64,000 nt of DNA, taken from positions 356,930 through 420,929 of the forward strand of contig JAGORR010000001.1 in NCBI GenBank assembly GCA_018062765.1, read 5' to 3'. Below, one piece after another: positions 4,361-64,000 of the stretch. Every line of letters begins with the position of its first letter. The stretch's first letter is position 1. This DNA is from Minisyncoccota bacterium (GTDB taxonomy: Bacteria; Patescibacteriota; Minisyncoccia; Phycocordibacterales; Phycocordibacteraceae). A program made the position numbers and the translations under genes. Below the pieces are notes generated by a model. The model did no database searches. It saw nothing but the letters and a program-made list of their open reading frames with translations, and had not been told where the DNA came from.

Positions 4361-4581
4361 ACCGCGGATAAGGGTCATCTGCGTCGTTTCTCATTCCGGT
4401 GCTCGCTCACCGTATTTCAATACGGCTCGCTTCGCTCCTCATTCGTGCCTCGCATCTGAACCCTTCTTCACGGTTTATTGAGTGACTTAGTATCTGCTTC
4501 CAATTTTCGCCAAAATTCCTGTGGCGTTGCGCTTTATAGGTGTCGGGCTACACTCGAGAACGGAAAGAAAGGAGGGCCCCA

Positions 4582-5238
4582 ATGGACCTCGATGCACTTA
4601 AGGAACGTTTCTTCAGGCTCTGGCATTTCTCAGACGCCAAGCAGGTCATCTGGAACGATGTGATCGCTCGTTATGGTGAGAAGCATCGCTTCTACCACAC
4701 GCTCGAACATATCGGCCACTGTCTCACGGAGTTCGATATCGCCCGCAAGTATCTCACGCTTCCGCGCGCGACCGACTGGGCGGCTATCGAGCACGCGCTC
4801 TGGTTCCACGACATCGTCTACAGCACGACGTCGTCCGGTAACGAGGAGAAGAGCGCGGAGTACGCCTATCGCGAGCTTCGCGGCATGGACATGCCGGTGC
4901 TGTTCTGTGATCAGGTGAAGCGGCTCATTCTCGTGACGAAGCTGCATCTGCCGCAGGCTCCCGACGAAGAGGTGATGTGCGACATCGACCTCGCCATCCT
5001 CGGGCAGCCTCGGCTGCGTTTCTCGCAGTACGAGGAATACATCAAGTTCGAATACGGAGTCGAGCCGCACGTTTTTTCCGCCGGCCGCGCGAAATTCCTC
5101 GTCGGTATGCTGAAGCGGCGACCCATCTTCTCGACGAGCCTCTTCCAACATGCGTACGAGCTCCATGCGCGCGCGAACATGGCTCTCTCCCTGCATCAGT
5201 GCGAGATAGATGTCGACATGCATGAGAATGCCGCCTGA
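4582..5238 (+). CDS. HD-superfamily phosphohydrolase (COG4339-like)
   Basis: HTLEHIGH...WFHDIVY His/Asp motifs; RBS AAAGGAGG lies 5 nt upstream of the ATG at 4582, so the track ORF start at 4540 is probably too long. Confidence 0.55.
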   Translation: MDLDALKERFFRLWHFSDAKQVIWNDVIARYGEKHRFYHTLEHIGHCLTEFDIARKYLTLPRATDWAAIEHALWFHDIVYSTTSSGNEEKSAEYAYRELRGMDMPVLFCDQVKRLILVTKLHLPQAPDEEVMCDIDLAILGQPRLRFSQYEEYIKFEYGVEPHVFSAGRAKFLVGMLKRRPIFSTSLFQHAYELHARANMALSLHQCEIDVDMHENAA

Positions 5239-5257
5239 CAACGAGTGTGACGACTGT

Positions 5258-5284
5258 AAGCGGGACGCTTAGGCGTCCCGTTTT
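5258..5284. terminator. Bidirectional intrinsic terminator (GGGACGC-ttag-GCGTCCC + TTTT) between convergent genes
   Basis: Hairpin plus T-tract read from the sequence. Confidence 0.5.
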
Positions 5285-5935
5285 CTATTTGCTACGGAGC
5301 GCAAGCAAGGAGAGGATGCCGGAGAACGCACCAGCGGACAGTAGTCCGTGCCACAGGAAGTGAGTGCCCATTGTTATGTACTCGCATGCCCACAAATCGA
5401 TAGACCGGAACAGGAGCGCGGATAGGGCGAGCACGAGTGCAAGGATGCCAAGGAGAGCGGCGCGTCCGGATACTCGATAGCTCCTCCACGTGAGTAAAAG
5501 CCCAAGGAGGACAACCGGAATTGCGACGCCTGCGAAAAAAGGTAGTTCAGGGAAGGTGGCATCGACCAGGAGTGCCGAGAGGTATTGGAGCGCGAGAAAT
5601 GCGACAAACATGAGGCCGGCGCCGAGCCATCCGTAGAACGTGCGAGCCCAAAAATATACGAAGAACAGTAGGAATAGAAGTCCTGGTGTCGTGTCGAAGG
5701 CAAGTGCCCACGGGGTGCGCAGTCCGTGCCATAGTAGGCTCCCAACGCCGTTCGTGACTAAGAGAATGCCAAGTACCCAGAGATCGTACGCGCGCGGTGC
5801 GCGGCGGTACACAAGGTAGAGTGCGAGGAGTCCGAACGCGACAATGATGAGGTTGGACCATGTATTCCATGTTTCCGCAGGGAACGCGGTTAACACATCT
5901 GGCGTCTCACAATACTGCGGACCGAAAGGGTACAT
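5285..5935 (-). CDS. Polytopic membrane protein, ceramidase-like
   Basis: 216 aa with about 7 predicted TM helices; ETWNTWSNL motif resembles the alkaline ceramidase family. Confidence 0.4.
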   Translation of the reverse strand: MYPFGPQYCETPDVLTAFPAETWNTWSNLIIVAFGLLALYLVYRRAPRAYDLWVLGILLVTNGVGSLLWHGLRTPWALAFDTTPGLLFLLFFVYFWARTFYGWLGAGLMFVAFLALQYLSALLVDATFPELPFFAGVAIPVVLLGLLLTWRSYRVSGRAALLGILALVLALSALLFRSIDLWACEYITMGTHFLWHGLLSAGAFSGILSLLALRSK

Positions 5936-5987
5936 GCGCCTAGTTTAGCAAATCGCTATTCCTCGACCTCCTTGCTCTCTCCTAGTT

Positions 5988-6025
5988 TGCTCCATCTCGG
6001 TGCCTATAGGCACCGAGATGGAGCA
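5988..6025. repeat. 38-bp perfect palindrome TGCTCCATCTCGGTGCC-TATA-GGCACCGAGATGGAGCA (copy 1 of 2)
   Basis: Second copy at 62403-62440 with a symmetric t>c / a>g change; the CT-rich upstream flank is also similar in both. Confidence 0.8.
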
Positions 6026-6175
6026 AAGAAGTTCACGGCATATCACGTTGTTACATGTACTAGCTCGCGTTTGCGCGCAAAAGCTCGCGCGCACCCAATA
6101 GTACTCACATCCTGTTCCTACTCTCCCCAAAAACCGACGACCCAAGGCAGATGCGTGCTATTTTTATACATATAT

Positions 6176-6712
6176 ATGTCATTCGCGGACCCGCGAGAGA
6201 ATGTTCTGCAGATAGGCCTTCATGACGGCATGAAGGTGGGAGACTTGGGCGCTGGATCGGGTCACTACGCGCTTGCTGCAGCTGGCGCCGTCGGAGACAC
6301 CGGTCGCGTGTACGCGATCGATGTCCAGGAGGAAGTCGTCATGCATATAAGGGACGCGGCACATCGCGCAGGGCTCAAGAATGTCGAGACGATATGGGGA
6401 GACTTCGAACGCCCTGGCGGCACCAAGCTTAAGGACGGAGTCCTCGATGCTGCCATACTCTCGAATGTCATGTTCCAGGTGGAGCATCATACGAGCGCGA
6501 TCTCGGAGGTGAAGCGCATCGTGCATCCTGGCGGAAAGGTGCTTGTCATCGACTGGGCGGGTTCCTACGGGCACTTGGGGCCTCATCCGGACCAGGTCGT
6601 TCCTGAGTCAGAAGCAGAGCGATTGTTTATACAGGCAGGATTCCACAAGGCGAAGAGTTTTCGCGCAGGTCCCCATCACTACGGTATCCTGTTTACGACA
6701 CCCGCCTCATGA
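6176..6712 (+). CDS. Class I SAM-dependent methyltransferase
   Basis: VGDLGAGSGHYAL SAM-binding motif I; start placed at the MSFADP Met at 6176, because the upstream part of the track ORF overlaps the palindrome and promoter region. Confidence 0.65.
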   Translation: MSFADPRENVLQIGLHDGMKVGDLGAGSGHYALAAAGAVGDTGRVYAIDVQEEVVMHIRDAAHRAGLKNVETIWGDFERPGGTKLKDGVLDAAILSNVMFQVEHHTSAISEVKRIVHPGGKVLVIDWAGSYGHLGPHPDQVVPESEAERLFIQAGFHKAKSFRAGPHHYGILFTTPAS

Positions 6713-8011: not shown

Positions 8012-8464
8012 ATGAAACGCACAGCCATCTTCGTTTCTGCACTCTTGCTGACTCTTTCAGCGATGTCCGCCCCAGTGTACGCGCAGGACATGAATCTTGG
8101 GGGTGGAGCGACCGGTAACGCTAGTACCAATCTCGGCGGAGGTCCGTCAGGTAACGGTACCAATCTGGGGGGAGGCTCTCAGGGGTGCGGATTCCTTTTG
8201 AATCCACTCGACAACGAGTGCAATAGCGACATGACGCTCAATGATCTCCTTAGCAAAATATTGAACGTCATCGTCCAGATAGGTGTAGTCGTGCTCACTA
8301 TGATGCTCGTCTACGTTGGTTTTCTCTTTGTCACTGCCCAAGGGAACCCGGAAAATCTTTCCAAGGCCCGGAGCGCACTCATATGGACGATAATCGGCGG
8401 CTTCCTCGTGCTTGGCGCGAGCGTCATTGCAGAGGCGGTTAAGTCGACGGTTGAAGCGCTCTGA
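8012..8464 (+). CDS. TrbC/VirB2-type pilin-like protein (paralog 1 of 5)
   Basis: Signal peptide, Gly/Asn-rich low-complexity segment, then two TM helices separated by NPENLSKARSAL; the same motif occurs in the 22412 and 23928 proteins. Confidence 0.6.
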   Translation: MKRTAIFVSALLLTLSAMSAPVYAQDMNLGGGATGNASTNLGGGPSGNGTNLGGGSQGCGFLLNPLDNECNSDMTLNDLLSKILNVIVQIGVVVLTMMLVYVGFLFVTAQGNPENLSKARSALIWTIIGGFLVLGASVIAEAVKSTVEAL

Positions 8465-8465
8465 T

Positions 8466-8738
8466 ATGGACGGCGAGGAGGTTATCGTCGTGGGACAGAA
8501 AGGCACCTTCGCCTCGATGGTGTACAAGTTCACCGGCTTCATTGACTCCAGTATTATCCCGTTATTGTTTGCGGCCGCATTCCTCGCGATGCTGGTGGGC
8601 ATATTTCGCTATTTCATGATTCCGGGCGAGGAGAATTTGCAGAAGGGTCGCCAGTTTTTGCTGTGGGGCGGTATCGCTTTTGTGTTCATGTTCCTTATCT
8701 GGGGGCTCGTAAACCTACTCCTCGATTCGGTATTCTAG
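8466..8738 (+). CDS. TrbC/VirB2-type pilin-like protein (paralog 2)
   Basis: 90 aa; two TM helices flanking EENLQKGRQFLLWGGIAFVFMFLIWGLVNLL; ATG lies 1 nt after the paralog-1 stop. Confidence 0.55.
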   Translation: MDGEEVIVVGQKGTFASMVYKFTGFIDSSIIPLLFAAAFLAMLVGIFRYFMIPGEENLQKGRQFLLWGGIAFVFMFLIWGLVNLLLDSVF

Positions 8739-8786
8739 CTGTTTATAAGTACACATAGCCTGGCTCAGTACTGATACGCTAAACGT

Positions 8787-9215
8787 ATGAAAAAGACATT
8801 CTCCGCCCTATTGTTTTCACTAGCGCTCATGTTCACACTTACACCGTCCATTGCCTTTGCGCAGGGCCAGCAGCAGCCGCAACCTGATCAGCAGGGCACG
8901 GGTGAGTCACAGCCGAGCGAGCTCGAGCTTCGTATCGGATGGCTTCTCGACTTCGTCGATGGGTACGTCATTCCGCTCATATTCGGACTCGCATTCGTCG
9001 TATTCATCTGGTTCGTGTTCGTGTACTTCATCCTTGGCGGAGCTGAGGAAGAGCAGCGCGCTAAAGGAAAGCAGTTCCTGTTGTGGAGTCTTATTGGGTT
9101 CGTACTCATGCTCTCCTTGTGGGGTATCGTGAACCTGCTTCAGAACACCATAGGATTCGATAATAACTCCAAGCCGTGTCTGCCGGTGTTCGAACAGGAC
9201 AACGAAGACTGCTAA
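8787..9215 (+). CDS. TrbC/VirB2-type pilin-like protein (paralog 3)
   Basis: Signal peptide, Gln/Pro-rich region, two TM helices with EEQRAKGKQFLLWSLIGFVLMLSLWGIVNLL. Confidence 0.6.
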   Translation: MKKTFSALLFSLALMFTLTPSIAFAQGQQQPQPDQQGTGESQPSELELRIGWLLDFVDGYVIPLIFGLAFVVFIWFVFVYFILGGAEEEQRAKGKQFLLWSLIGFVLMLSLWGIVNLLQNTIGFDNNSKPCLPVFEQDNEDC

Positions 9216-9299
9216 TGCGGTTGTCCCCACAGTGCACCCCATACGATTGACTTCGCGCCAAAGCCGCTTACCCTTAGTACATATCCGCTTACCACTGCT

Positions 9300-9689
9300 A
9301 TGAAGAAAATTCTCTTGCTCGTCGCTCTGTTCACCATCCCGGCCATTGCGTTCGCGCAGTTTGGCGAAGGCGGTAATAATCAGGACCTTGGCGATCTCGG
9401 TCAGGAGTTCACTGACATCATCAATAACATCGCGGTTCCGCTTATCTTCGCGCTCGCGTTCGTCATCTTTATTTGGGGAGTATTCAAGTACTTCATTCTT
9501 GGTGGCGGAGACGAGGAGGCTCGCGAGAAAGGTCGCGACCTCATGATTTGGGGACTTCTGGGATTCTTCTTCATGATTTCAGTCTGGGGACTCGTGAATC
9601 TCGTCGTGAACACCATCGACCTGGAGCAAAGCGGAGCACCGGACGAAAATGACTTGCCGGACGCTCCGGGAGTCAGGGACTCGAACTAA
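9300..9689 (+). CDS. TrbC/VirB2-type pilin-like protein (paralog 4)
   Basis: Signal peptide, two TM helices with EEAREKGRDLMIWGLLGFFFMISVWGLVNLV. Confidence 0.6.
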   Translation: MKKILLLVALFTIPAIAFAQFGEGGNNQDLGDLGQEFTDIINNIAVPLIFALAFVIFIWGVFKYFILGGGDEEAREKGRDLMIWGLLGFFFMISVWGLVNLVVNTIDLEQSGAPDENDLPDAPGVRDSN

Positions 9690-11974: not shown

Positions 11975-12100
11975 TGCTGGGGGAGGGCTTGGTCAGGCGC
12001 TCATTCGTCGCCGTCGCTCCTCACTCCGCCTGACCACCCTCGCGTGACAGACTTTGCTAAGTCTGTAGACCGCGCTCGGTTTCAAGTCTCCACCCCATGC
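11975..12100 (-). repeat. tRNA-Leu-associated structured repeat unit (copy u2, minus orientation)
   Basis: 5' end GCATGGGGTGGAGACTTGAAAC (reverse complement of a T-loop-like GTTCAAGTCTCC); hairpin ACAGACTT-AGCA-AAGTCTGT; 3' end CCAAGCCCTCCCCCAGCA mimics the tRNA-Leu 3' end. Confidence 0.6.
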
Positions 12101-12128: not shown

Positions 12129-12252
12129 TGCTGGGGAGGGCTTGGCGAAGCGTCTGCCGATCGTCGTCACTCCCGGCTCCGCTCGGCCCTGCTCGCACGA
12201 CACGGCGTGCTCGCCGCGTAGACCGTGCTTGCGTTCAAGTCTCCACCCATGC
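12129..12252 (-). repeat. tRNA-Leu-associated structured repeat unit (copy u1, minus orientation)
   Basis: Same architecture as u2; hairpin CGCGGCG-AGCA-CGCCGTG; 3' end CCAAGCCCTCCCCAGCA. Confidence 0.6.
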
Positions 12253-12282: not shown

Positions 12283-12364
12283 TGCTGGGGAGGAGACTTG
12301 AACTCCTAACCCGTGAGGGACATGGTCCTAAGCCATGCGCGTATACCAATTCCGCCACCCCAGC
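12283..12364 (-). tRNA. tRNA-Leu (anticodon TAG), class II with a long variable arm
   Basis: Manual fold: acceptor GCTGGGG/CCCCAGC, D stem GCG/CGC, anticodon stem CATGG/CCATG with loop CTTAGGA, T arm AGGAG-TTCAAGT-CTCCT, discriminator A. Confidence 0.8.
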
Positions 12365-13872: not shown

Positions 13873-13918
13873 GCACGATTGCGAGGCGGGGTCACGAATA
13901 AGGTCTGCTCGACGGAGC
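13873..13918. terminator. Long bidirectional terminator hairpin (GGTCACGAATAAGGTCTGCTC-gacg-GAGCAGACCTTATTCGTGACC)
   Basis: 21-bp perfect inverted repeat between the tRNA pair and the convergent rbfA gene. Confidence 0.6.
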
Positions 13919-13949
13919 AGACCTTATTCGTGACCAGTACCGCTCTGTC

Positions 13950-22096: not shown

Positions 22097-22198
22097 CCAC
22101 CGATAGCCAGCAGCTGCTGGCTATCGTCTTTATATGGGTGCGGCTCCCAGGTGGTCACAAATACTTCCGCGTCGACACTTGGAAGTTTCGCGACCCCG

Positions 22199-22239
22199 CC
22201 AAAAAGGAAAAACCTGGAGCAGTCCAGGTTTTTCCTTTT
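22199..22239. terminator. Bidirectional terminator AAAAAGGAAAAACCTGG-agcag-TCCAGGTTTTTCCTTTTT
   Basis: 17-bp stem flanked by A/T tracts, immediately 3' of the minus-strand tRNA-Trp. Confidence 0.6.
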
Positions 22240-22313
22240 TGGCGGGCCCAGTAGGAATCGGACCTACGCTAACGGTTTTGGAGACCGTTGTACTACCACT
22301 ATACGATGGACCC
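22240..22313 (-). tRNA. tRNA-Trp (anticodon CCA), CCA end encoded
   Basis: Minus-strand fold: acceptor GGGTCCA/TGGGCCC, anticodon stem ACGGT/ACCGT with loop CTCCAAA, T arm GTAGG-TCCGATT-CCTAC, discriminator G + CCA. Confidence 0.8.
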
Positions 22314-22411: not shown

Positions 22412-23368
22412 ATGCGCCGCTTGGCACTTTACCTCCTCGCAGCTTCTCTCATACCGCTTGCCGCGGCGGCACAAGGGCTTCCGTCAGGCTCAATCATCCC
22501 GGACCTCGATGAGGGAGATCAGAACCTGCGCACGTGCGCTGCAGGTTGGAAGGCGGTTCTCATAATATCGGGAGGGTTCCTAGAGCTCGCAATTTACATC
22601 GCGATGCTTATCGCCGTTCTCGTTATCGTCTATGCAGGGATTATATTCCTGTTTAATGCGACAAACCCCGAGAACCTGTCGAAAGGGAAAAAGATTCTTG
22701 GAAACGCGGCGATTGGTCTTCTTATTACGCTTTGCGCATGGCTACTTGTGAATACGGTGCTCACAAGCCTGGGCGCAGGAGACATCGCAAGCCGCACAAG
22801 CGTCATAGGTTCAGGCGGCTCGCTCTGTATCACGATACAACCTCCGCAATCTCAAATACCAACCAGTCAGGAAGTAGCTGCCGGTTTGCCACTGGCACCA
22901 CCTCCTCGAGGTACCGGCTCGTGTGACCCGATTGCTGTGCGCGCAGCCGCAGCGGCCGGTGGGTACCAAATCTCGGAGCGAGAGGCGAACACATTTGCCT
23001 GCCTTGCAGGTCCCGAGAGCTCGTGCGGCGCAAATGTCGATGGTGCGACGACGCCTTCTGGGCAGCGTACGAGTGCAGCGGGTCCGTGGCAGAACATTCT
23101 TGGTTTTAAGGATAAGTGCCACTCACTCAACATCCCCGCCTGTGGCAACTTGCAGTGTCACCAGGCATTTTCAGGCGGAGTGGAGAAGTCTGATCCGGCC
23201 TCGAGAGCTCTCGCTGCCAAGTGTCGTCAGGCACTTGCAAACCTTACGTGCGCTGCCGCCGCAGCCGTGTGTCTTAATAACGCGAGCGGAAACGACTTCA
23301 GCGACTGGACTGCGGATTCGCGCAGCTCGAAACAGAAGAAGTGTATTCGCGACCATGCGGGGCTCTAG
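22412..23368 (+). CDS. Pilin-domain protein (TrbC/VirB2-like two-TM module) with a C-terminal Cys-rich extracellular domain
   Basis: 318 aa; signal peptide; TM-NPENLSKGKKIL-TM module like the paralogs at 8012 and 23928; about 200-aa C-terminal region with at least 14 Cys. Confidence 0.5.
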   Translation: MRRLALYLLAASLIPLAAAAQGLPSGSIIPDLDEGDQNLRTCAAGWKAVLIISGGFLELAIYIAMLIAVLVIVYAGIIFLFNATNPENLSKGKKILGNAAIGLLITLCAWLLVNTVLTSLGAGDIASRTSVIGSGGSLCITIQPPQSQIPTSQEVAAGLPLAPPPRGTGSCDPIAVRAAAAAGGYQISEREANTFACLAGPESSCGANVDGATTPSGQRTSAAGPWQNILGFKDKCHSLNIPACGNLQCHQAFSGGVEKSDPASRALAAKCRQALANLTCAAAAAVCLNNASGNDFSDWTADSRSSKQKKCIRDHAGL

Positions 23369-23383
23369 CGCTATACTTTACCT

Positions 23384-23926
23384 ATGAGCCGAACAGCCTT
23401 TTGGATACTCGCACTCGCATCGGTTGGGCTTTTGGCTGCTGGCACACTTTTCTATCTCAATTTGAATCCTGAGCCGGAAGCTCCTCCCATGGTAACTCCT
23501 GACCCATTTGGGAGTACTAACGATGGCGTAATTATTACGGCCGTGGGCGGGGAGGACATACGCGCTCGTGACTTCGTTAACGATGGCGAGACTGAACCTG
23601 ATCCCGGTAATCCCGGAACGTACTTCCTTGCCGGTTATTTCGGCTACTGCGACGGGGACGAGGAGTGTGAACCTATTGCAACAAGCGACTTCAACATTAA
23701 GTACGATAGCAAGATTGATGCCTTCACGATCGGTCTTGCCACCGAGCCGATAGGTGAAGTTAGGAAGCGTGCAGAAGCATTTCTAATGAAGAAGCTCGGG
23801 ATTGGGGAAAATGATATGTGTGCACTCAATTACTATGTCGGCACTTCGTATTGGGTAAATGAAACTTACTCGGGAGGTAATCTTGGGTGGAGTTTCTGTC
23901 CCGGCTCCATAGCACTTCCTGACTAG
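23384..23926 (+). CDS. Secreted/anchored hypothetical protein
   Basis: 180 aa; N-terminal hydrophobic signal/anchor; no recognisable domain. Confidence 0.4.
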   Translation: MSRTAFWILALASVGLLAAGTLFYLNLNPEPEAPPMVTPDPFGSTNDGVIITAVGGEDIRARDFVNDGETEPDPGNPGTYFLAGYFGYCDGDEECEPIATSDFNIKYDSKIDAFTIGLATEPIGEVRKRAEAFLMKKLGIGENDMCALNYYVGTSYWVNETYSGGNLGWSFCPGSIALPD

Positions 23927-23927
23927 T

Positions 23928-24839
23928 ATGCGACGTACTACGACATTGCTCCTGCTTCTCCCGTTGCTACTTACAGCTATGCCCGCGCATGCGCAGTTCA
24001 CCGAGGGCTGGACCATCGTCCCGGCAGCGTGCCATTCGTGCCCTGCGGCTTGGGTTTGCGTACTTGAGATGCTCAACAATCTGGTGACGCTCATCATGAC
24101 CATCGCGGTCTTAATCGTCGTACTCGTCATCACCTACGCCGGCATCCTGCTTGTGTTTACTGCGACGAACCCCGAGAACAAGAGCAAAGCAAAAAGCATG
24201 CTTATTAATGCTGCGGTAGGTCTCGTCATCGCTCTTGGCGCGTGGCTCATCATCGATAAGGTCCTCGAGTCTTTGGGTGCGGGCGGTATAGACGAGACAA
24301 CGCGCGTTATTGGTACCGGTGGCAGCGCATGTGTTGTTGCTCAGGATCCGATCACTGAGCCGCCTGAGGGAACGGATCCATCGCCTATTACTCCCGGTCC
24401 TGGCGGTGGAGGCAGCGGCGCTAATTGCCCGGTCCCGGCGGCGTCCGGGATGGTGGCATTCCCTGCGGAGGCTACAAGCGGTGAAACTGAATACGCAACA
24501 CCGAGTACGGTCGAGAACTTCCTTGCGATGCGCGCCGCAGCGCTTGCCGATGGAATTGACATTAAGGTGACTGACGGATATCGGTCCGAAGCCGAACAGG
24601 TTCAGTTATGGTATCGCTACAATCAGGACACGAGCCAAGTCGCAAGGCCGTGTACGCTAGGTGGCAGCGGTTCAAACCACAACTCAGGTGTCGCTCTGGA
24701 CCTCACCGTCGGCTGTAGAAAGACAGATAGTTCCTGTGATAGCGCCCAATACCGATGGCTTAAAGCAAATGGTTCTCAGTGGGGCTTCAACAACAATTTG
24801 CCTACCGATACGGTGCACTGGTCACCATCGGGTCGCTAG
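23928..24839 (+). CDS. Fusion of a pilin-type two-TM module with an M15 (VanY-like) D-Ala-D-Ala carboxypeptidase domain
   Basis: N-terminus TM-NPENKSKAKSML-TM; C-terminus contains ...DGYRSEAEQVQLW...SNHNSGVALDL, the hallmark Zn-peptidase M15 motifs (SxHxxGxAxD). Confidence 0.55.
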   Translation: MRRTTTLLLLLPLLLTAMPAHAQFTEGWTIVPAACHSCPAAWVCVLEMLNNLVTLIMTIAVLIVVLVITYAGILLVFTATNPENKSKAKSMLINAAVGLVIALGAWLIIDKVLESLGAGGIDETTRVIGTGGSACVVAQDPITEPPEGTDPSPITPGPGGGGSGANCPVPAASGMVAFPAEATSGETEYATPSTVENFLAMRAAALADGIDIKVTDGYRSEAEQVQLWYRYNQDTSQVARPCTLGGSGSNHNSGVALDLTVGCRKTDSSCDSAQYRWLKANGSQWGFNNNLPTDTVHWSPSGR

Positions 24840-28196: not shown

Positions 28197-28216
28197 CAAA
28201 GCGCGAAGCGCGCATG

Positions 28217-28364
28217 GTCGGGGAGTACCCTGCCTGCGCAGGGTACGTGAGAGACTTGAACGCCGGAGCGATGATTCGTCAGCAGACGAATCCGCGAGGC
28301 AAGGCTATGAAAATTCTCGAGTGACGGCGAGAGAATTATTCCTGGCCAAGCCTTCCCCGGCACA
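28217..28364 (+). repeat. tRNA-Leu-associated structured repeat unit (copy B, plus orientation)
   Basis: 5' GTCGGGG pairs with 3' CCCCGGC-A (acceptor-like); internal GAGAGACTTGAACGCCGGAGCGATG; hairpin GATTCGTC-AGCA-GACGAATC; 3' end CCAAGCCTTCCCCGGCACA. Confidence 0.6.
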
Positions 28365-28385
28365 TGAAGCACGCGCAGCGTGCGA

Positions 28386-28511
28386 AGGGCTCGTGGGTGG
28401 GACTTGAACGCCGGAGCGATGCTTCATCAGCAGATGAAGCCGTGAGCTGGGGTCGCGGAAAATGCCATGTGACGACATGGCATTTATTCGCGACCAAGCC
28501 ACCCCGGCACG
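28386..28511 (+). repeat. tRNA-Leu-associated structured repeat unit (copy C, plus orientation)
   Basis: GGGACTTGAACGCCGGAGCGATG; hairpin GCTTCATC-AGCA-GATGAAGC, which is compensatory relative to copy B; second hairpin ATGCCATGT-gacg-ACATGGCAT; 3' end CCAAGCCACCCCGGCACG. Confidence 0.55.
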
Positions 28512-28555
28512 TGACAAATATGTTGCGCGCATAAGCGCATGCTAAAATCCTTCAC

Positions 28556-29575
28556 ATGACAGAGCCGATGCGATCAGTAGAGCCGACACGATACGACTCC
28601 GTGTATTGGGTCGATACTGACAAGGTCAAACCGAATCCCTATCAGCCCCGGAAGGAGTTCGACGAAGAGCGTCTGAAGTCGCTTGCAGAAAGTATTCGCC
28701 AGTACGGGATACTGCAGCCCTTGACCGTAACACGCGTCGAGATAGCGCGCATGGATGGAGGACTCGCGACCGAGTACGAGCTCATCGCTGGAGAGCGCCG
28801 GCTCCGTGCCTCGAAGCTTATCGGTCTCAAGCAGGTACCGGTCGTTATTCGTATCGGAGAAGAATCAGGCAAGGTAAAGCTCGAGCTTGCCATCATCGAG
28901 AACCTGCAGCGTGAGGACCTTAACGCAATCGACCGAGCGCAGGCACTGAACCAGCTCGTAAAGGAGTTCGATCTCTCTCATGCGGAAGTGGGTGAAAAGA
29001 TAGGACGCTCGCGTGAGTATGTCTCGAACTCCATCCGTCTGTTGGCGCTCCCGCCGCAAGTGCAGCAGGCTGTCGTCAATCGCGAGCTTTCCGAGGGGCA
29101 TGCCCGGGCACTCCTCATGATCGCCGATAAGCCGGTTGAGATGGAAACTCTGTTCAAGGAAATTGTCCTTAAGAAAACGTCTGTGCGCCACGTCGAGCAG
29201 ATGGTGCGTCGACTTGCACAGGACAAGATTCGCAAGCACGACAAGACACCAGAGATGATGGCGCTCGAGAAGTCGCTTACGGAAACCCTAGGTACGCGCG
29301 TCCTCATCGAGAATCGCCCGCAAGGCGGACGTCTCCTCATCGAGTTTTTCTCGCCAGAGGACCTTTCCAATATAGTCTCTCAGCTTGCGACGAAGGAGGA
29401 TACTTCTTTCGGAGAGCCGGGAGCACCAGAGGTGTCCGCAACTTCCCATATCGAACATGCGAACACGTCTCAGATTACGGATGAGGTAGCAACAACTCCG
29501 CTAGCAGCACCAGCACCAGCATCAACAGCAGCAGAGCAGGATGATCTTGATTCCATCAAGAACTTCAGCGTCTAG
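28556..29575 (+). CDS. parB: ParB/Spo0J-family partition protein
   Basis: ParB N-terminal box (LIAGERRLRAS), HTH region and a C-terminal dimerisation region; no parA adjacent. Confidence 0.85.
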   Translation: MTEPMRSVEPTRYDSVYWVDTDKVKPNPYQPRKEFDEERLKSLAESIRQYGILQPLTVTRVEIARMDGGLATEYELIAGERRLRASKLIGLKQVPVVIRIGEESGKVKLELAIIENLQREDLNAIDRAQALNQLVKEFDLSHAEVGEKIGRSREYVSNSIRLLALPPQVQQAVVNRELSEGHARALLMIADKPVEMETLFKEIVLKKTSVRHVEQMVRRLAQDKIRKHDKTPEMMALEKSLTETLGTRVLIENRPQGGRLLIEFFSPEDLSNIVSQLATKEDTSFGEPGAPEVSATSHIEHANTSQITDEVATTPLAAPAPASTAAEQDDLDSIKNFSV

Positions 29576-42989: not shown

Positions 42990-45731
42990 ATGGAGGGAAC
43001 ACGGCAGCTTACGACTCCCGAGGAGGAGCTTGCCTACTTGCGTGCGCAAGTAGAGGAGAAAGAACGCGAGCTCGCGGGGCGCGCGCAGGAAGCACCGCGC
43101 AACACTCTCGTGCACGAGCGTATCCTTCATCACCGGCGCGAGATGCCAGAGACGGTGCTCGCTCCGTCCTACAAGCTACCTGAAGCTGAAGTGGAAGGCA
43201 TCGCGCTGGATCTCGATCCGGATGATAACGACGCAACGATGGCGGAACTTCAGGGAATCATGGAGGAGAAGGGTATCAAGAATGCGCTCTCGGTCCTTGA
43301 AAAGCTCCGGAATCCGCATCTCGATGACGACTTCCATCGATTCCTGGTGCAGTACGTCGTCGCTGGAATGCAGGTGAAGGGGCTCGGGGAACGGGAACCA
43401 GCATGGAAGGCGCTCCACATGACTCTCTACGAGGTCATCCTTCCGGAGCCCGGCAAGGACTCGGACGCGCGAGAGAAGACCTTGAAGGAACTCATCTCCT
43501 CGATGGAGCAGTTCTATGCAGGCATGCTCTCGGTGGGGGATGCGAGCGCGAGCGAGCCGGGCTATTTCTCGATGGAGCTCGCTGTTCCCGCTAATCGTCC
43601 GGAGCTCCTTTTCTATGTCGCTGTGCCTAACGGCAAGCGCGCGCTCTTTGAGCAGCAGCTCTTGGCAACCTTTCCGAACGCGAACATTCGTCCGCAGCCG
43701 AACGATTACAACATATTCAGCGAGGATGGCGTTGCCGTAGGCGCCTCTGCGACGCTAGCTGACAAAGGCGTGCTTCCTCTCAAGGATTATGCTGATTTCG
43801 ACTACGACCCGTTGAATACGGTTCTGGGTGCCTTCGCGAAGATCGAGAAGGCGAGCGAGGGAGCGGCGCTCCAAGTCATCATCGAGCGCGATACGCACCA
43901 CCTGGAACATTACCGCCGGATACTCGGAGCGCTCCGTCGCGGCGAATCGAAGGATCGTGCGCTCTCGATGCCGGAGACATTCGTGGGCGAGGCCGCGCGC
44001 GAGATCGGGTCAGCGCTCTTCCCGGGCTCACGCAAATGGGAGAACGAAGTTGAGAAGAGAGCCGAAAGGAAAGATGGGAACCAGGCTTTGATTGAGCAGA
44101 TAGAGAAGAAGATCGCAGCTCCCATCGTAAAGACGACGCTCCGTCTCATGGTGTCCTCGCCGACCCACACCCGCGCGGAGTCAGGGCTCGCGGACCTTGA
44201 GGCGGCATTCAATCAGTTCACCAACACCGTAGGCAACAAAATCAACTGGAATCGGTTCTCAGGCACCAAGGTACAGAGCCTTTTCCATGCATTCTCTTAC
44301 CGTTTGCCGGCGAAGGACGCGATACCGCTTTCTCTTCGAGAGGTCACGAGCCTCTACCACTTCCCGCCCGAGGGCATCAGCTCTACGCCGCAACTCCGGC
44401 AGTCGCGCTTCACTGCGGCCGCTGCGCCCTTGGATCTCCCTGACTCGGGGACGTATCTCGGGGATAACGAGTTCCGCGGACGGAAGACTGCGGCATTCCT
44501 GTCGCCGGAGGACCGCATGCGGCACCTCTATGTCGTCGGACAGACGGGAACCGGTAAGTCGGTATTCATGAGGAATCTCGCCATACAGGACATCAAGGCA
44601 GGGAACGGCGTCTGCTTCATCGACCCCCACGGGAACGACATCCTCGATATCCTCGCGGCTGTACCTCCCGAGAGATACGAGGATGTCATCTATTTCGATC
44701 CGGCGAACCTGGCGCGTCCGTTCGGCCTCAACTTGCTTGAATACGATGCGAGCCGCCCAGAGCAGAAAACCTTCATCGTTAATGAGATCCTCGCGATATT
44801 CCGCCGCCTCTACGGGGACGTGCCGGAGTCGATGGGTCCTGCGTTCGAGCAGTACTTCCGCAACTCAACCCTCCTGGTGATGGAGGACCCGGCATCGGGC
44901 TCGACCTTACTCGATATCGCGCGAGTCCTTTCGAACAAGGAGTTCCGCGACCTGAAACTCTCGCGAAGTAATAATCCGGTCATAAACCAGTTCTGGAACG
45001 AGATAGCGACGAAGGCTGAAGGAGAGGCATCGCTTCAAAACATCGTTCCGTACATCACTAACAAGTTCGATGACTTCACCGCGAACGACTTCATGCGGCC
45101 AATCGTCGGGCAGCAGGAATCCTCGTTCAAATTCCGTGAGGTGATGGACAACAAGAAGATACTCCTTGTGAACCTCTCTAAAGGAAGGCTCGGGGAACGA
45201 AACGCCAACCTCCTGGGCCTCATCCTCGTCGGGAAGATATTCATGGCTGCGCTCTCTCGTGCAGATAACCCGAGGGCAGACTACGCGCCGTTCTACCTCT
45301 ATATCGACGAATTCCAGAACATAACTACGGACTCCATACCGGGAATCCTCTCCGAGGCTCGCAAATACCGGCTTTCGCTTACCATGGCGCACCAGTTTCT
45401 GGCGCAGGTGGATGAGAAGGTGCGGGATGCCGTGTTCGGGAACGTCGGCTCCATGGCCGTGTTCCGCGTCGGCGAGGAAGATGGCGAGTACTTCGAGAAG
45501 CAGTTCGCGCCGGTGTTCTCCGCGCTCGATTTCGTGAACATAGAGAATTACAACGCGTACGTCAGACTCCTTGCGCGCGGCGTGCCGCAGAAGCCATTCA
45601 ATATAAAGACGCCGCCACCGGCCGCCACGAACCCTGCGCAGGTGGACGACCTCAGAGAGCTCTCAGCACTCGTCTACGGCCGCGACCGTACACAGGTGGA
45701 AAACCTTATCAGAAGCAGGTACATGTCATAA
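42990..45731 (+). CDS. Large P-loop NTPase, T4SS-type (VirB4/TraC/TraD-like) or HerA/DUF87-like, with an N-terminal ~480-aa domain of unknown function
   Basis: 913 aa; Walker A GQTGTGKSVF and Walker B LYIDEFQN in the C-terminal half; no N-terminal TM helices. Confidence 0.5.
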   Translation: MEGTRQLTTPEEELAYLRAQVEEKERELAGRAQEAPRNTLVHERILHHRREMPETVLAPSYKLPEAEVEGIALDLDPDDNDATMAELQGIMEEKGIKNALSVLEKLRNPHLDDDFHRFLVQYVVAGMQVKGLGEREPAWKALHMTLYEVILPEPGKDSDAREKTLKELISSMEQFYAGMLSVGDASASEPGYFSMELAVPANRPELLFYVAVPNGKRALFEQQLLATFPNANIRPQPNDYNIFSEDGVAVGASATLADKGVLPLKDYADFDYDPLNTVLGAFAKIEKASEGAALQVIIERDTHHLEHYRRILGALRRGESKDRALSMPETFVGEAAREIGSALFPGSRKWENEVEKRAERKDGNQALIEQIEKKIAAPIVKTTLRLMVSSPTHTRAESGLADLEAAFNQFTNTVGNKINWNRFSGTKVQSLFHAFSYRLPAKDAIPLSLREVTSLYHFPPEGISSTPQLRQSRFTAAAAPLDLPDSGTYLGDNEFRGRKTAAFLSPEDRMRHLYVVGQTGTGKSVFMRNLAIQDIKAGNGVCFIDPHGNDILDILAAVPPERYEDVIYFDPANLARPFGLNLLEYDASRPEQKTFIVNEILAIFRRLYGDVPESMGPAFEQYFRNSTLLVMEDPASGSTLLDIARVLSNKEFRDLKLSRSNNPVINQFWNEIATKAEGEASLQNIVPYITNKFDDFTANDFMRPIVGQQESSFKFREVMDNKKILLVNLSKGRLGERNANLLGLILVGKIFMAALSRADNPRADYAPFYLYIDEFQNITTDSIPGILSEARKYRLSLTMAHQFLAQVDEKVRDAVFGNVGSMAVFRVGEEDGEYFEKQFAPVFSALDFVNIENYNAYVRLLARGVPQKPFNIKTPPPAATNPAQVDDLRELSALVYGRDRTQVENLIRSRYMS

Positions 45732-45743
45732 TCACAGCTATAT

Positions 45744-48700
45744 ATGGCAGGCGAGGGTCCAGGAAACGGTAATGGCAGCAAGCTCGCGGAGCAGCTTGCG
45801 AAACTCGTCGAGCAGAAAGGCCTTCAAGGGATGGCAGTCGCTGATGCTGGTGAGGAACAGGTGCCTGCTCAAGTTGCCACCCCCGCTGTTGTTGAACAGC
45901 ATGAAGTGCCCGTTTCCAGCTACGATGAGGCAGCGGTCTCGAAAGCGCACAAGCGATTCACCGCGCTCATAAGGGGGCTTGAGAAACACCCCGAGATACA
46001 GGTACGTCCTGATGCGCTTGCGAGCCTGAAGACGGCATTCGATGCTATGGGTAAGGCAAAAGGCAGGCTGAAGGCTATGGATGACGCGAATGAAGTGAAT
46101 CACGAACGCCGTAAGAAACAGTTGGATATCATCCAGGCATCGTTTTCCGTGATATTCGGAGAAATCGGAAACGAAGTATCCGAAGGGCTGCGCCCGGTCG
46201 ATGGGACTGCGACAGGAAGGAACGAGGCCACTTCGCGCGACGAAGTGGATACGCGCTACTATCCGCTCGCAGATGAGATTTTCGCAAAGGGGTATAACCC
46301 GAATGAGCTCGAATCGTGGCGAAACATCGCTAAGCGAGTCAAAAGGCCGATTCCAGGAAAGCCTTACAACCCGGGGATATCGCTTACTGATCGCGAGATA
46401 CGCGCGGTTCGCGCCGAACTTGCCAAACTCGAGCAGAAGGACCCGATAGTGCTTCCGACTAAAGCTGCGTCAGAACCAGCACCGCAAGTGCCGCGCGAGC
46501 GGGCACGAAAGCCAAAGCGATCGGAAAAGGATCGCGAGTCACGCGCGATTCGCGATGAACCAAGCATATACGACTCACCTGGCCCGATGCGCCGTACCGA
46601 CATGGACCGCATTGATCCTGCGGTCGTATCAGGGGTAGTTGGAACGTTTGACACGAATGCTCCTGATACGGTTACGGAGCCTTCTGGAGCGGATGCCGCC
46701 TCTGAACTCGACGTCGAGCCTGCTATTCACGACAGCACGCCGAGGCTCCCTGCGGATAAGTTCAAGGATGCGACCCCGAAGAGCGTACGCGAGAGTCTGC
46801 GCCGTTCGATACTGAGTATCAAAGAGCTGCCGCCTACGGAAATGCCAGCCGGGGCTATCGATACCTTGCCGCCTGACCTCGGGTTGAGAACCACTACTCC
46901 CGCAAGAGCGGAAGCGCTGAGGTCCGTAGTCACCCCGCCCGGATCGATAGACACGCTTCCTCCGGTCATCGATACTGCGCCGCAAGCATCTGCAGCCCCA
47001 GAGCCTGTGCTGGTTGCGGAGGTAGATCCGGACGCCGCTGATGCGGCACTTGCGCACGCCGTGTTCCCGAGTGCGTCAACGGAAGGTGTAGCAAATCTTC
47101 CCGCAGTGGTGAATTCGGAAGCTACGCCTACATGGCAGCCGCTCTCGGAGCAAGGTCTCACGCAAGAAGAACTTGTGCATCGGCGTGCTGAGCGCCGTGT
47201 GCAGATTGGCGTCGAGGCTGGCCTTACACAGGAGCTTGGCGACATGTACAACGCACGCGAAGCGTACCTCACTGCGTACCGGGCATTTTATGCGAATAAC
47301 AACCTGGCTGCGCGCGCTGCAGTACAGGCAACGAATTCCACCGAGTGGCAGAACTTGAAGCGACTTGAGGCTGCCTCGGCGACAGCAAGCCTTGCATACC
47401 AGCAAGCACTCGAGCGTTCCGCGACGGAACGGCTAACGGCTAACGCGCCTGAGCGCGAGGCGCTGCTACGTGCAAAGGGAGAGGCCAGGTACCTACTTCT
47501 TGTCGGCGTCGGCTGGAATGCGCCGCGGTACGAAGACGGCCGGCTGATGTCTAAAGAGGACTACGTGAACCAGTACATGACGCAGTACCAGGGCCGCGTA
47601 CTCGATCGCTACATGTCTACTATTGCGTGGCGCGAAGTCACAGCCGGGAACGAGAACGCACGCATCGAGACTCGTGCGGAGGCGCTAGGAGCAAAACAAC
47701 GCAACGTCTTCGATAGGATGCGCTCGTTGGTCCAGGCAACGAACCAGGGACTCGAACGGACGCTTACTCCGACGGGCGCTCGCGCATTCCGTATCGTCGC
47801 AGCTGCGGGCGTCGGTACCGTGCTTGGCGGGTGGGCAGCAGGTGCGATGCGTGGTGCCTCGGTTATCGCAGGTATGCTCACTGGCTCCACCGCGGGTGCG
47901 GCAGCAGGCTCCTTGTTCCAGCGTCTCGTGGGTGCGCGCCGGGCAGCTGCCGTTGATACTGTGCGACACTCGCGTATCACAAGTGCCGCAGACTTAACAG
48001 CGGCAGCTGCTGCGTTCCGCAAGGGTGACGCTGCGCAAATAGCAGCTACGCGAAGGCGTTGGGAGATGGGCGTCGCGCTCGGCGTCGCCTTCCTTACGGC
48101 ACGTTCTATGCCGGGACTAGAGCCCGTCGTTACTAGCTCCCTTAGCGATTTGAGGCGCATCGGCGGAGAGATTATGGGAACAGGCGAGAGCGCCGGCGCG
48201 ACAGCGGCCGTACCCACTGGTGGCGAGTCAGCGTCGCCTTCGTCAGCGGTCACGGGAGGCGCTGGCGGCAGTGAAGGCCAGTCTGCGCCTGTCGCCGGGG
48301 GTGAGAGCGGTACGGGAAGCGGAGCACCAAGAGCAGGCGGTGAAGGCTCCGGGGGCGCAGCTCCGCTCGACTCATCCGTGCCGCCACCTGCGAACAATCC
48401 AGGCCCTGCGGGGAGTCCCTTCGGACGCATTCCGGTACCGACGGATTCCGTTCCGCAGGCGGACGCTATCGGGGGATTCGCTCGTGAGTCGGCGATAATC
48501 TCGGGCGGTAACGGAGGTGACGCCGTGTCGAGTGAAGGACTCGACGATATGCGCGCAGTTGCGGCCGAAGTGCGCGGCACCTCGACAGAATACGTGGCAC
48601 GTTCAGGTGACGGCGGCATTAAGCTCGTCGAAGGTCTCCAGCAGCAGCTTGCGCGCGAGGGCATCACTGAGACGACACCAGGCATTTCAGCTATGACGCG

Positions 48701-62279: not shown

Positions 62280-62402
62280 AAGAGTATTCCCGTTTGCGTA
62301 TGAGTTGCCTCGGGTGCTAGCTGCCCTGGTTGGTCGTGCGTTGCCCGGCAGCGCGTATCAAGCAGCCCGCTTCAGAACTTCTCTTTCCTCCTTACTTTCA
62401 CT

Positions 62403-62440
62403 TGCTCCATCCCGGTGCCTATAGGCACCGGGATGGAGCA
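62403..62440. repeat. 38-bp perfect palindrome TGCTCCATCCCGGTGCC-TATA-GGCACCGGGATGGAGCA (copy 2 of 2)
   Basis: Same element as 5988-6025, with a symmetric compensatory change. Confidence 0.8.
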
Positions 62441-62557
62441 ATGCATAAATAGGGCATATATGTGCGAGTCATACATACACGAGCGGTACATATGATGCGG
62501 TGGGAGTTGAAATGGTGTGCTGAAACTTGAGTGCAGGAGCTGCGTTATACTTTGCAT

Positions 62558-63986: not shown

Positions 63987-64000
63987 CAATCAGCCAGGCG

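What the first reader, a model, noticed from the sequence alone, without database searches (positions are those of the whole stretch)
5988..6025. 38-bp perfect palindrome present twice with a symmetric compensatory change
TGCTCCATCTCGGTGCC-TATA-GGCACCGAGATGGAGCA at 5988-6025 matches 62403-62440 except for T>C at stem position 10 and the paired A>G. This keeps the palindrome perfect, either as a 17-bp RNA/DNA hairpin or as a symmetric dimer-binding site. Both copies sit ~120-150 nt upstream of plus-strand genes (the methyltransferase at 6176 and ddl at 62558). Both are preceded by a similar CT-rich flank (…CCTCCTT…TTTGCTCCAT / …CCTCCTTACTTTCACTTGCTCCAT). Both are followed by an A/T-rich stretch with TATA-like boxes. 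A repeated regulatory element (operator or attenuator) or a REP-like intergenic repeat fits best.
Basis: seen in the sequence. Interest (0 to 1): 0.6.

Follow-up and report, generated by a model that had tools for sequence, protein, structure and literature searches.

The report
Lineage-specific dispersed 40-bp perfect palindrome
A 40-42-bp perfectly symmetrical DNA sequence occurs twice between genes in this tiny-genome (CPR) bacterium and in diverged but still symmetrical form in one sister species; it behaves like a small dispersed hairpin repeat rather than a conserved gene switch, and its function remains unproven.

Summary
The copies are perfect zero-loop palindromes of 42 bp (5986-6027) and 40 bp (62402-62441) that differ only by one mirrored T:A>C:G pair. 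The source is a Candidatus Pacebacteria (CPR) MAG. Independent read sets of the same species carry both copies.

A sister species (methyltransferase 85% identical) has a roughly 30%-diverged homolog at the orthologous site. All four visible inner-arm changes there are mirrored, with no one-sided changes and no wobble pairs.

Other close relatives lack it at both loci. One has an unrelated 38-bp perfect palindrome in the same uvrC-ddl spacer, and another has an ordinary terminator there.

Genes here are leaderless, with extended -10 boxes next to the ATG, so the palindromes lie upstream of promoters, not in 5'UTRs. They have no U-tail. They have no REP-type GTAG, no target-site duplication and no parS or Rfam match, and the window encodes no transposase.

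Best reading: a lineage-restricted, low-copy dispersed palindromic repeat. It is REP-like in behaviour but is not a REP family member. Its symmetry is kept at the DNA level, and it may act as a hairpin barrier where it is transcribed. The operator and attenuator readings are not supported. Genome-wide copy number could not be obtained.

The parts
5986..6027 (.). Copy 1: 42-bp perfect zero-loop palindrome. It lies between the divergent ceramidase-like gene (5285-5935, minus strand) and the methyltransferase gene (6176-6712, plus strand).
   Evidence: RNA hairpin dG -36.9 kcal/mol (z -11). DNA hairpin dG -23.9 kcal/mol. Present in Logan contig L016. Orthologous diverged copy in L017.
62402..62441 (.). 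Copy 2: 40-bp perfect zero-loop palindrome, 123 nt after the uvrC stop (62279) and 116 nt before the ddl ATG (62558).
   Evidence: RNA dG -38.1 kcal/mol. DNA dG -23.9 kcal/mol. Present in L005 and in the 92.5%-identical strain L008, where the visible 27 nt are 27/27 identical while the adjacent spacer is 67% identical.
5967..5973 (+). CCTCCTT left-flank motif of copy 1 (AAGGAGG on the minus strand), 12 nt before the palindrome. No start codon follows it on the minus strand.
   Evidence: The shared 7-mer has p about 0.08, so whether it belongs to the element is uncertain.
62387..62393 (+). CCTCCTT left-flank motif of copy 2, 8 nt before the palindrome.
6037..6043 (+). GGCATAT right-flank motif of copy 1, 9 nt after the palindrome.
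   Evidence: The same motif lies between the palindrome and the gene in L017. In L008 it is triplicated as TAGGCATGTA. It echoes the palindrome core TATAGGCA.
62453..62459 (+). GGCATAT right-flank motif of copy 2, 11 nt after the palindrome.
6156..6164 (+). Context, not part of the repeat: extended -10-like box TGCTATTTT of the methyltransferase gene, 11 nt before the ATG. It is conserved in relatives that lack the palindrome.
62546..62551 (+). Context: -10-like box TATACT of ddl, 6 nt before the ATG. The block CTGCGnTATACT is conserved in L006, L007, L008 and L010.
5942..5950 (-). Context: extended -10-like box TGCTAAACT of the ceramidase-like gene, 6 nt before its ATG (5935). This places the centre of copy 1 about 70 nt upstream of that transcription start.

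Best explanation
The element is a lineage-restricted, low-copy dispersed palindromic repeat. It is a 40-42-bp non-coding unit that has been copied or homogenised between at least two intergenic sites in this Pacebacteria species, and it is inherited at the methyltransferase locus in a sister species.

Its perfect dyad symmetry is maintained at the DNA level. A mutation in one arm is either reverted or copied to the other arm by hairpin-templated (template-switch) synthesis. Selection on pairing in both orientations may add to this.

It is neither a promoter-proximal operator nor a leader attenuator. Where it is transcribed (the 3' region of uvrC) it would fold into a 19-21-bp hairpin of about -37 kcal/mol. 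That hairpin could act as a barrier to read-through or to 3' exonucleases, in front of the next leaderless promoter, as REP elements do in enterobacteria. At the divergent copy-1 site it probably has no transcript to act on.

Shown: the two copies, their symmetry, the mirrored changes, the patchy phylogenetic distribution, the position relative to conserved -10 boxes, and the lack of U-tail, GTAG and target-site duplication. Inferred: the copying mechanism, the template-switch maintenance, and any barrier function.
For: 1. Two copies are 38/40 identical, and homology ends at the palindrome edges.
2. The single difference is mirrored (p=0.0085).
3. The L017 species carries a homolog at the orthologous site (CM 38 bits, E=1e-7 although truncated). 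Its arm identity is 14/20. In the inner 10 bp, 5 of 10 pairs changed on both sides across the three sequences. None changed on one side only, and 100% are Watson-Crick paired, against 20-43% in slid controls.
4. Within-genome copies (95%) are far more alike than the between-species orthologs (about 70%), as expected for a repeat that is copied or homogenised.
5. The distribution is patchy. The element is absent upstream of the methyltransferase gene in L014 (87% identical), L019 (79%) and L018 (76%). It is absent from the uvrC-ddl spacer in L006, L010 and L011/L012. The CM found no member in about 96 kb of relatives' loci.
6. There are no wobble pairs in about 70 bp of stems, and the centre itself is self-complementary. 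Both point to a DNA-level or two-strand constraint rather than a one-strand RNA.
7. Wherever uvrC and ddl are more than 100 nt apart, the spacer holds a strong hairpin: this element, an unrelated 38-bp palindrome in L007, or a canonical terminator in L010. This is consistent with a barrier role at that site.
8. Template switching that perfects and extends inverted repeats is established (PMC7202029, PMC8604942, PMC13100816).
9. In strain L008 the visible 27 nt are unchanged, while the neighbouring 89-nt spacer has 11 substitutions and 27 gap positions.
Against: Only two copies are seen, and the rest of the roughly 638-kb contig could not be searched, so 'dispersed repeat' rests on n=2 plus one ortholog.

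No mobilising enzyme (RAYT/HUH, transposase or recombinase) is encoded in the window. There is no GTAG guide motif and no target-site duplication.

Copy 1 lies between two gene starts, where a transcript barrier has no obvious substrate. The T...A polarity of the outer stem is the reverse of the genome's real terminators.

The same-orientation flank motifs (CCTCCTT on the left, GGCATAT on the right) hint at a polar, possibly protein-read unit. The outer 10 nt of the L017 left arm were not seen. The contig-start offset fits an arm of about 20 nt, but that is an inference.
Confidence: 0.5

Rival explanations
1. It is a duplex binding site for a symmetric dimeric protein. That protein could be a lineage-specific regulator, or the element could be a non-canonical centromere (parS-like) site for the ParB encoded at 28556-29575.
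For: The element has perfect dyad symmetry through the centre, and few copies. ParB lies between the two copies (22.5 kb and 33.8 kb away). The window has no canonical parS even at 3 mismatches, and no CACGTG-type core. No other long repeated palindrome exists in the window. The flank motif GGCATAT/TAGGCAT resembles the core half-site TAGGCA and is tandemly triplicated with a 10-bp period in L008. The centre of copy 1 lies about 70 nt upstream of the ceramidase-like gene's start.
Against: Twenty of twenty symmetric positions far exceeds any dimer footprint. Uncontacted positions should drift independently in the two arms, but none do. The sister-species ortholog differs at 6 of 20 arm positions, or equivalently by a symmetric 1-bp insertion per arm that would shift half-site spacing. 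Chromosomal ParB-parS pairs are otherwise strongly conserved (established knowledge). The element is absent from orthologous promoter regions in relatives that are 76-87% identical. Its distances to the downstream starts (about -130 and -160) are atypical for operators. The core was not found in 185,579 species genomes or in JGI metagenomes.
Confidence: 0.2
2. It is a functional RNA hairpin that evolved as a U-tail-less, bidirectional transcription terminator or insulator, or as an RNase III or 3'-exonuclease barrier. It would shield leaderless promoters from upstream read-through. The two copies would be alike simply because one was duplicated.
For: Copy 2 sits in the 3' region of uvrC. L010 has a canonical terminator in that spacer and L007 has another perfect palindrome there. 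The clade has other 20-24-bp perfect hairpins without U-tails right after tRNA genes (13890-13935, 22195-22246). One of these, L018:16192-16233, is followed directly by a TTGACA-N17-TATAAT promoter. The stems are very stable, and the mirrored changes keep pairing intact.
Against: Copy 1 lies between two divergent gene starts, so no gene ends there. The genome's clear terminators have A-tract/stem/T-tract polarity, and this element has the opposite polarity, with no U-run on either strand. The complete absence of G.U pairs and the self-complementary loop are not required of an RNA element. The relatives L006 and L011 manage with no spacer at all.
Confidence: 0.17
3. It is a minimal MITE-like remnant, meaning two abutted terminal inverted repeats of an insertion sequence, or it is a pair of site-specific recombination sites bounding a 56-kb invertible or excisable segment.
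For: The 38-bp core begins with TG and ends with CA, as the ends of many transposons do (established knowledge). The gyrA-methyltransferase interval next to copy 1 is a variable slot: relatives carry a 123-aa gene there, while this genome carries a phosphohydrolase gene plus a ceramidase-like gene. The central TATA resembles a crossover spacer.
Against: There is no target-site duplication at either copy. No transposase or recombinase is encoded in the window. Nothing lies between the arms. No full-length element and no plasmid or phage match was found. The 56 kb between the copies is housekeeping DNA in conserved synteny, and cumulative GC skew is monotonic across both sites.
Confidence: 0.08

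Closest known systems
REP / BIME elements with their RAYT (TnpA-REP) transposase, including the 'group 3' REPs with perfect stems (PMC8266576)
   Same: Both are short, non-coding, extragenic palindromes that can form hairpins. Copies are nearly identical within a genome and species-specific in sequence. Presence at orthologous sites is patchy. When transcribed, both can act as RNA hairpin barriers.
   Different: This element has no 5' GTAG/GTGG guide tetranucleotide. Its stem is 19-21 bp with a self-complementary centre, whereas REP stems are 8-16 nt perfect or bulged and imperfect. Only 2 copies are seen, against tens to hundreds for REPs. No RAYT gene was seen. The copies are not arranged in inverted pairs (BIME/REPIN).
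Quasipalindrome correction and inverted-repeat homogenisation by replication template switching (PMC7202029, PMC8604942, PMC13100816)
   Same: This mechanism explains mirrored double changes with no one-sided intermediates, perfection through the centre, and the absence of wobble pairs, all without requiring any function.
   Different: It is a mutational mechanism, not an element family. It does not explain how the same 40-bp sequence came to occupy two loci 56 kb apart.
Bidirectional intrinsic terminators
   Same: Both are stable GC-rich perfect hairpins in an intergenic spacer downstream of a gene (copy 2). Relatives have a terminator at the same place.
   Different: This element has no U-tract on either strand and the reverse T...A polarity. 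Copy 1 is not downstream of any gene. Terminators are not normally repeated with identical sequence.
parS / ParB centromere sites (16-bp palindrome TGTTNCACGTGAAACA)
   Same: Both are palindromic, present in a few dispersed and nearly identical copies, and here they lie within tens of kb of parB.
   Different: There is no sequence resemblance. The element is 40 bp rather than 16. Its sequence diverges between sister species, whereas chromosomal parS is conserved across phyla.
MITEs (for example Correia elements, RUP, ERIC)
   Same: Both are dispersed, non-coding, intergenic and made of inverted repeats.
   Different: This element has no internal segment, no target-site duplication and no identifiable parent IS. 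At 40 bp it is shorter than any described MITE known to me (from my own knowledge).

Membership tests
REP (RAYT-associated repetitive extragenic palindrome) | Conserved GTAG/GTGG tetranucleotide immediately 5' of the stem | tested here: not met
   The flanks are ...CTCCTAG|TTTGCTCC and ...TTTCAC|TTGCTCC. Neither strand has GT[AG]G next to the stem. The requirement is taken from PMC8266576.
REP (RAYT-associated repetitive extragenic palindrome) | High copy number (tens to hundreds) in extragenic space | tested here: inconclusive
   There are 2 copies in 64 kb, both intergenic.
REP (RAYT-associated repetitive extragenic palindrome) | Cognate tnpA-REP (HUH Y1 transposase) gene in the genome, usually flanked by REPs | tested here: inconclusive
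   None of the window proteins scanned against Pfam, NCBIfam or PHROGs is one. The rest of the genome was not seen.
Intrinsic (Rho-independent) terminator | GC-rich hairpin followed by a U-tract on the transcribed strand | tested here: not met
   The terminator scan found no sites in either region. The 3' flanks are GAAGTTC, TGCATAA, and ACTAGGA and GTGAAAG on the minus strand. Genuine terminators in the window do have the A...T polarity.
MITE / solo-TIR transposon remnant | Terminal inverted repeats flanked by a direct target-site duplication, with a related autonomous IS | tested here: not met
   Neither copy has a direct repeat at its edges. No transposase is encoded in the window. There are no plasmid, phage or viral matches.
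parS (ParB centromere) | Match to the conserved 16-bp consensus TGTTNCACGTGAAACA | tested here: not met
   The element does not match. The window has only chance hits at 3 mismatches and no TTCACGTGAA core.
parS (ParB centromere) | Specific binding and spreading of ParB | not testable with these tools
   This needs EMSA or ChIP with the ParB encoded at 28556-29575.
Transcription-factor operator or regulon motif | Conserved upstream of orthologous genes in related genomes, with conservation limited to contacted positions | tested here: not met
   The element is absent upstream of the methyltransferase gene in L014, L018 and L019, and upstream of ddl in L006, L010 and L011. Where it is present (L017), 6 of 20 positions differ, yet the visible inner 10 bp remain fully symmetric.
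Leader attenuator or riboswitch (Rfam families) | Located in the 5'UTR of the regulated gene, and/or matching a curated RNA family | tested here: not met
   The element lies about 100-160 nt upstream of the conserved -10 boxes that sit next to the ATGs of ddl and the methyltransferase. Rfam gave only microRNA-hairpin noise far below the gathering scores.

The most novel reading that the evidence does not exclude
The element is the founding member of a Paceibacteria-specific class of DNA-level dyad sites of about 40 bp with a TATA centre and polar flank motifs. In this reading it is read as duplex or cruciform DNA by a fast-co-evolving protein. The site could be, for example, the non-canonical centromere of a ParB that has no canonical parS within 64 kb. 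Alternatively it could be a cruciform insulator that partitions leaderless, extended -10 transcription units in a genome that has almost no 5'UTRs.
Probability: 0.12. Interest if true: 0.65.

Novelty: new variant of a known kind. Interest (0 to 1): 0.38.

Why it matters
CPR/Patescibacteria genomes are tiny and are usually described as nearly free of repeats and poor in regulators. A self-maintaining 40-bp perfect palindrome that is duplicated within a genome, and that stays symmetric through about 30% sequence divergence between species, shows something specific. It means that hairpin-templated concerted evolution, or an unknown hairpin- or dyad-reading protein, operates in these organisms.

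The element also has a practical consequence. It breaks k=31 assemblies at every copy: four independent Logan contigs start inside it.

If the element turns out to be protein-bound (for example a centromere-like site or an insulator), it would be a handle on chromosome organisation or transcription-unit insulation in a phylum with no genetics. If it is only a selfish or neutral repeat, it is a modest addition to the catalogue of REP-like elements.

Tried and rejected
1. Public-collection scans gave nothing real. CATCNCGGTGCCNNNNGGCACCGNGATG in 185,579 species genomes gave 3 hits, and a 24-base version in JGI metagenomes gave 1 hit. All are chance matches inside high-GC coding regions, with non-complementary N positions and no outer arms. 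IMG/VR gave 0 hits.
2. An exact look-up of GyrA failed. The 638-kb NCBI contig itself was never returned, only short Logan contigs, so genome-wide copy number is unknown.
3. Rfam at gathering and at permissive thresholds returned only tRNAs and microRNA-like noise.
4. The sigma-70 promoter and terminator scans found nothing in either region.
5. A small ORF starting at the ATG inside the arm (MEQ...) is rejected. The peptides differ after 3 residues, and L017 has ATG-TAA there.
6. The AAGGAGG on the minus strand after the hairpin is rejected as a ribosome-binding site. No start codon follows it, and there is an in-frame stop before the ceramidase-like gene's ATG. AAGGAGG is also generally enriched on coding strands here.
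7. A sigma-54 promoter reading (GG-N10-GC) was considered by eye and rejected because the spacing is N12. CIRCE/HrcA and NrdR boxes were also considered by eye and rejected because half-site spacing and orientation differ.
8. The L007 palindrome is not a family member. Its arm identity is 7/19, and the CM gives no hit at E<=10.
9. An R-M controller (C-box) next to 'the methyltransferase' is rejected. That gene is a conserved UbiE/Methyltransf_11-type small-molecule methyltransferase in fixed synteny with an SBP gene and pilin genes.
10. An origin, terminus or dif reading is rejected because cumulative GC skew rises monotonically across the window.

Full report
OBSERVATION. Copy 1 is a perfect zero-loop palindrome of 42 bp (5986-6027). 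Copy 2 is 40 bp (62402-62441). They differ at one position of the arm (T>C) and at its mirror (A>G). The expected number of palindromes with arms of 20 nt or more in 64 kb of this composition is 8.6e-8. Given two differences, the chance that the second is the complementary base at the mirror position is 0.0085. As RNA the hairpins have dG -36.9 and -38.1 kcal/mol (z about -10 to -11). As DNA both have dG -23.9 kcal/mol. Similarity between the loci ends at the palindrome edges, apart from one 7-mer on each side in the same orientation. These are CCTCCTT 8-12 nt to the left and GGCATAT 9-11 nt to the right. Each shared 7-mer alone has p about 0.08.

SOURCE AND REALITY. Ddl and the methyltransferase are 100% identical to proteins of a 'Candidatus Pacebacteria' (Paceibacterota, CPR) MAG with a 637,994-bp contig. 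Logan assemblies of SRR11088469 reproduce both loci exactly, and each contig starts 9 nt left of a palindrome centre (L016 at 5998, L005 at 62413). A k=31 graph is expected to do this at a perfect palindrome with arms of about 20 nt. The element is therefore genuine, not a MAG artefact.

CONTEXT. Copy 1 lies between two gene starts. One is a ceramidase-family membrane protein (5285-5935, minus strand; PF05875). The other is a UbiE-type methyltransferase (6176, plus strand). Copy 2 lies 123 nt after uvrC and 116 nt before ddl.

Gene starts in this window mostly lack a Shine-Dalgarno sequence. They carry TGCTAnnnT, TATACT or TATAAT 5-12 nt before the ATG. Examples are parB, ddl (TATACT, 62546-62551), the methyltransferase (TGCTATTTT, 6156-6164) and the ceramidase-like gene (TGCTAAACT). 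The ddl and methyltransferase boxes are conserved in several species whether or not those species have the palindrome. I infer leaderless or near-leaderless mRNAs. On that basis the palindromes lie about 70 nt (ceramidase-like gene), about 130 nt (ddl) and about 160 nt (methyltransferase) upstream of transcription starts, outside any 5'UTR. That removes the attenuator reading.

The window's clear terminators are perfect hairpins with A-tract/stem/T-tract polarity, placed after genes and tRNAs (9705, 12489, 27257, 39535, 50387). The element has the opposite polarity (TTTGC...GCAAA) and no U-run on either strand. No Rfam family matches it.

COMPARATIVE EVIDENCE. Relaxed core patterns found only chance hits in the GTDB species genomes, in JGI metagenomes and in IMG/VR. 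Nothing was found in plasmids or phages.

- The uvrC-ddl spacer in relatives. In L006 (Ddl 72% identical) the two genes are 21 nt apart. In L011/L012 they overlap. L010 has an ordinary terminator (CCTCAAGGTG-A-CACCTTGAGG followed by TTTTG). L007 has an unrelated perfect 38-bp palindrome, GTAGAGGAGATGTATCATA|TATGATACATCTCCTCTAC.
- The methyltransferase locus in relatives. L014 (87% identical, same MAG as L007), L019 (79%) and L018 (76%) have no palindrome. They have a different upstream gene: a 123-aa gene where this genome has a phosphohydrolase gene plus the ceramidase-like gene.
- The sister species. L017 (methyltransferase 85% identical, run SRR12901021) begins CTGTGACCTA|TAGGTCACAGGATGTAACAA, 85 nt before its methyltransferase ATG. 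This is a homolog of the element at the orthologous site.

For the L017 homolog, right-arm identity to copy 2 is 14/20. A covariance model scores it at 38 bits (E about 1e-7) even though it is truncated. Across the three sequences, all cells of the inner 10 bp are Watson-Crick pairs. Five of the 10 pairs changed on both sides and none changed on one side only. Slid controls pair in 20-43% of cells.

The same model finds no further member in the window or in about 96 kb of relatives' loci, and it does not recognise the L007 palindrome. In strain L008 (ddl 92.5% identical at the DNA level) the visible 27 nt of copy 2 are unchanged. The next 89 nt have 11 substitutions and 27 gap positions (p=0.03-0.13).

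WHAT IT IS. The pattern has five parts. Copies are near-identical within a genome (95%). The ortholog in the sister species is much more diverged (about 70%). Close relatives show presence or absence at the same sites. The location is intergenic. The element has no coding capacity.

This is the behaviour of a small dispersed palindromic repeat of the REP type, not of a conserved operator. Three features point to a constraint at the DNA level, or equally on both strands, rather than on a one-strand RNA:
- There are no wobble pairs in about 70 stem bp (p<=0.03 even at 5% wobble).
- The centre itself is self-complementary.
- Every observed change is a full double change.

Replication template switching at quasipalindromes is a documented mechanism that perfects and extends inverted repeats (PMC7202029, PMC8604942, PMC13100816). 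It would produce exactly these mirrored changes without any selection.

A function is not demonstrated. The most defensible one is a hairpin barrier where the element is transcribed, downstream of uvrC. Each lineage that has a uvrC-ddl spacer longer than 100 nt carries some strong hairpin there. Copy 1 has no obvious transcript to act on.

RIVALS.
- Protein-binding dyad site. The window encodes ParB (28556-29575) and has no canonical parS. No other long repeated palindrome is present. The flanks are polar, with a TAGGCA-like motif that is triplicated at a 10-bp period in L008. Against this, 20/20 symmetry and rapid symmetric divergence between sister species are not expected of a dimer footprint or of a chromosomal parS.
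- U-tail-less terminator or insulator. This fits copy 2 and the clade's other long tail-less hairpins after tRNAs (13890, 22195, L018:16192). It does not fit copy 1.
- MITE remnant or recombination site. This lacks target-site duplications, any enzyme in the window, and any sign of rearrangement.

COMPARISON WITH KNOWN FAMILIES. The element works like a REP but is not one by the defining GTAG motif (PMC8266576). Its stem is about twice as long as the 'perfect' group-3 REPs. Copy number and the presence of a RAYT gene are untested. It fails the tests for intrinsic terminator, MITE, canonical parS, conserved operator and Rfam family.

VERDICT. Interest is moderate (0.38). The symmetric co-evolution is clean and the CPR context is unusual. 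However, only two copies plus one ortholog are documented, and the function is inferred, not shown.

Noticed in passing
L007:9806-9843: A relative (GCA_964565655.1) has an unrelated perfect 38-bp palindrome with an ATAT centre in the same uvrC-ddl spacer. It starts with GTAG and ends with CTAC, the REP guide tetranucleotide. It is not a member of the window's family (CM).
   Followed up: partly
window-wide gene starts, e.g. 28541-28549 (parB), 62546-62551 (ddl), 6156-6164, 5942-5950: Most genes lack a Shine-Dalgarno sequence and carry an extended -10-like box (TGCTAnnnT, TATACT or TATAAT) 5-12 nt before the ATG. This implies mostly leaderless mRNAs in this Pacebacteria genome.
   Followed up: partly
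window 28556-29575 and the whole window: A canonical three-domain ParB is encoded, but the 64-kb window holds no parS-like site, even at 3 mismatches or for the CACGTG-type core. No ParA gene was recognised next to it.
   Followed up: partly
window 28200-28510: Directly after tRNA-Leu(caa) and upstream of parB there are two 105-nt direct repeats (28253-28357 and 28401-28505, 71% identical). Each is followed by a CCCCGGCAC tRNA-3'-end-like tag, and there is a hairpin at 28460-28485. This may be a remnant of integration at the tRNA.
   Followed up: no
window 12065-12095 and 12218-12248: A 31-nt tRNA-like fragment (…TTCAAGTCTCCACCC) is repeated next to tRNA-Leu(tag). It forms an inverted repeat with the tRNA itself (12233-12248 with 12288-12303).
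   Followed up: no
window 13890-13935, 22195-22246; L018:16192-16233: There are other very long perfect hairpins (20-24 bp stems) without U-tails immediately after tRNA genes. In L018 one is followed directly by a textbook TTGACA-N17-TATAAT promoter. These may be a clade-specific type of transcript-end or processing signal.
   Followed up: partly
L008 versus window 62413-63990: Strain mosaic: ddl is 92.5% identical at the DNA level, but the adjacent pterin-4a-carbinolamine dehydratase gene and everything downstream are 100% identical. This indicates recent recombination between strains.
   Followed up: no
L008:30-70: A 10-bp unit, TAGGCATGTA, is tandemly triplicated just after the palindrome in strain L008. 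The unit resembles the palindrome core TATAGGCA and the window's GGCATAT flank motif.
   Followed up: partly
window 4361-6150 versus L014, L018, L019: The gyrA-methyltransferase interval is a variable slot. Relatives carry one or two small minus-strand genes of unknown function (121-126 aa). This genome carries an HD-type phosphohydrolase (phrog_19425) and a ceramidase-family membrane protein instead.
   Followed up: partly
L007:12014-14336: The relative carries a CBASS-like pair (a SMODS/DncV-like nucleotidyltransferase plus a patatin phospholipase) just downstream of the ddl-pterin genes. The window has no counterpart there.
   Followed up: no
window 8012-9689, 22412-24839, 42990-49547: Multiple T4SS-pilin (PF18895) genes are present, one of them fused to a VanY peptidase domain. 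There is also a VirD4/TraG-like ATPase followed by a 1267-aa protein with no family match. This is the typical CPR surface and DNA-transfer apparatus.
   Followed up: no
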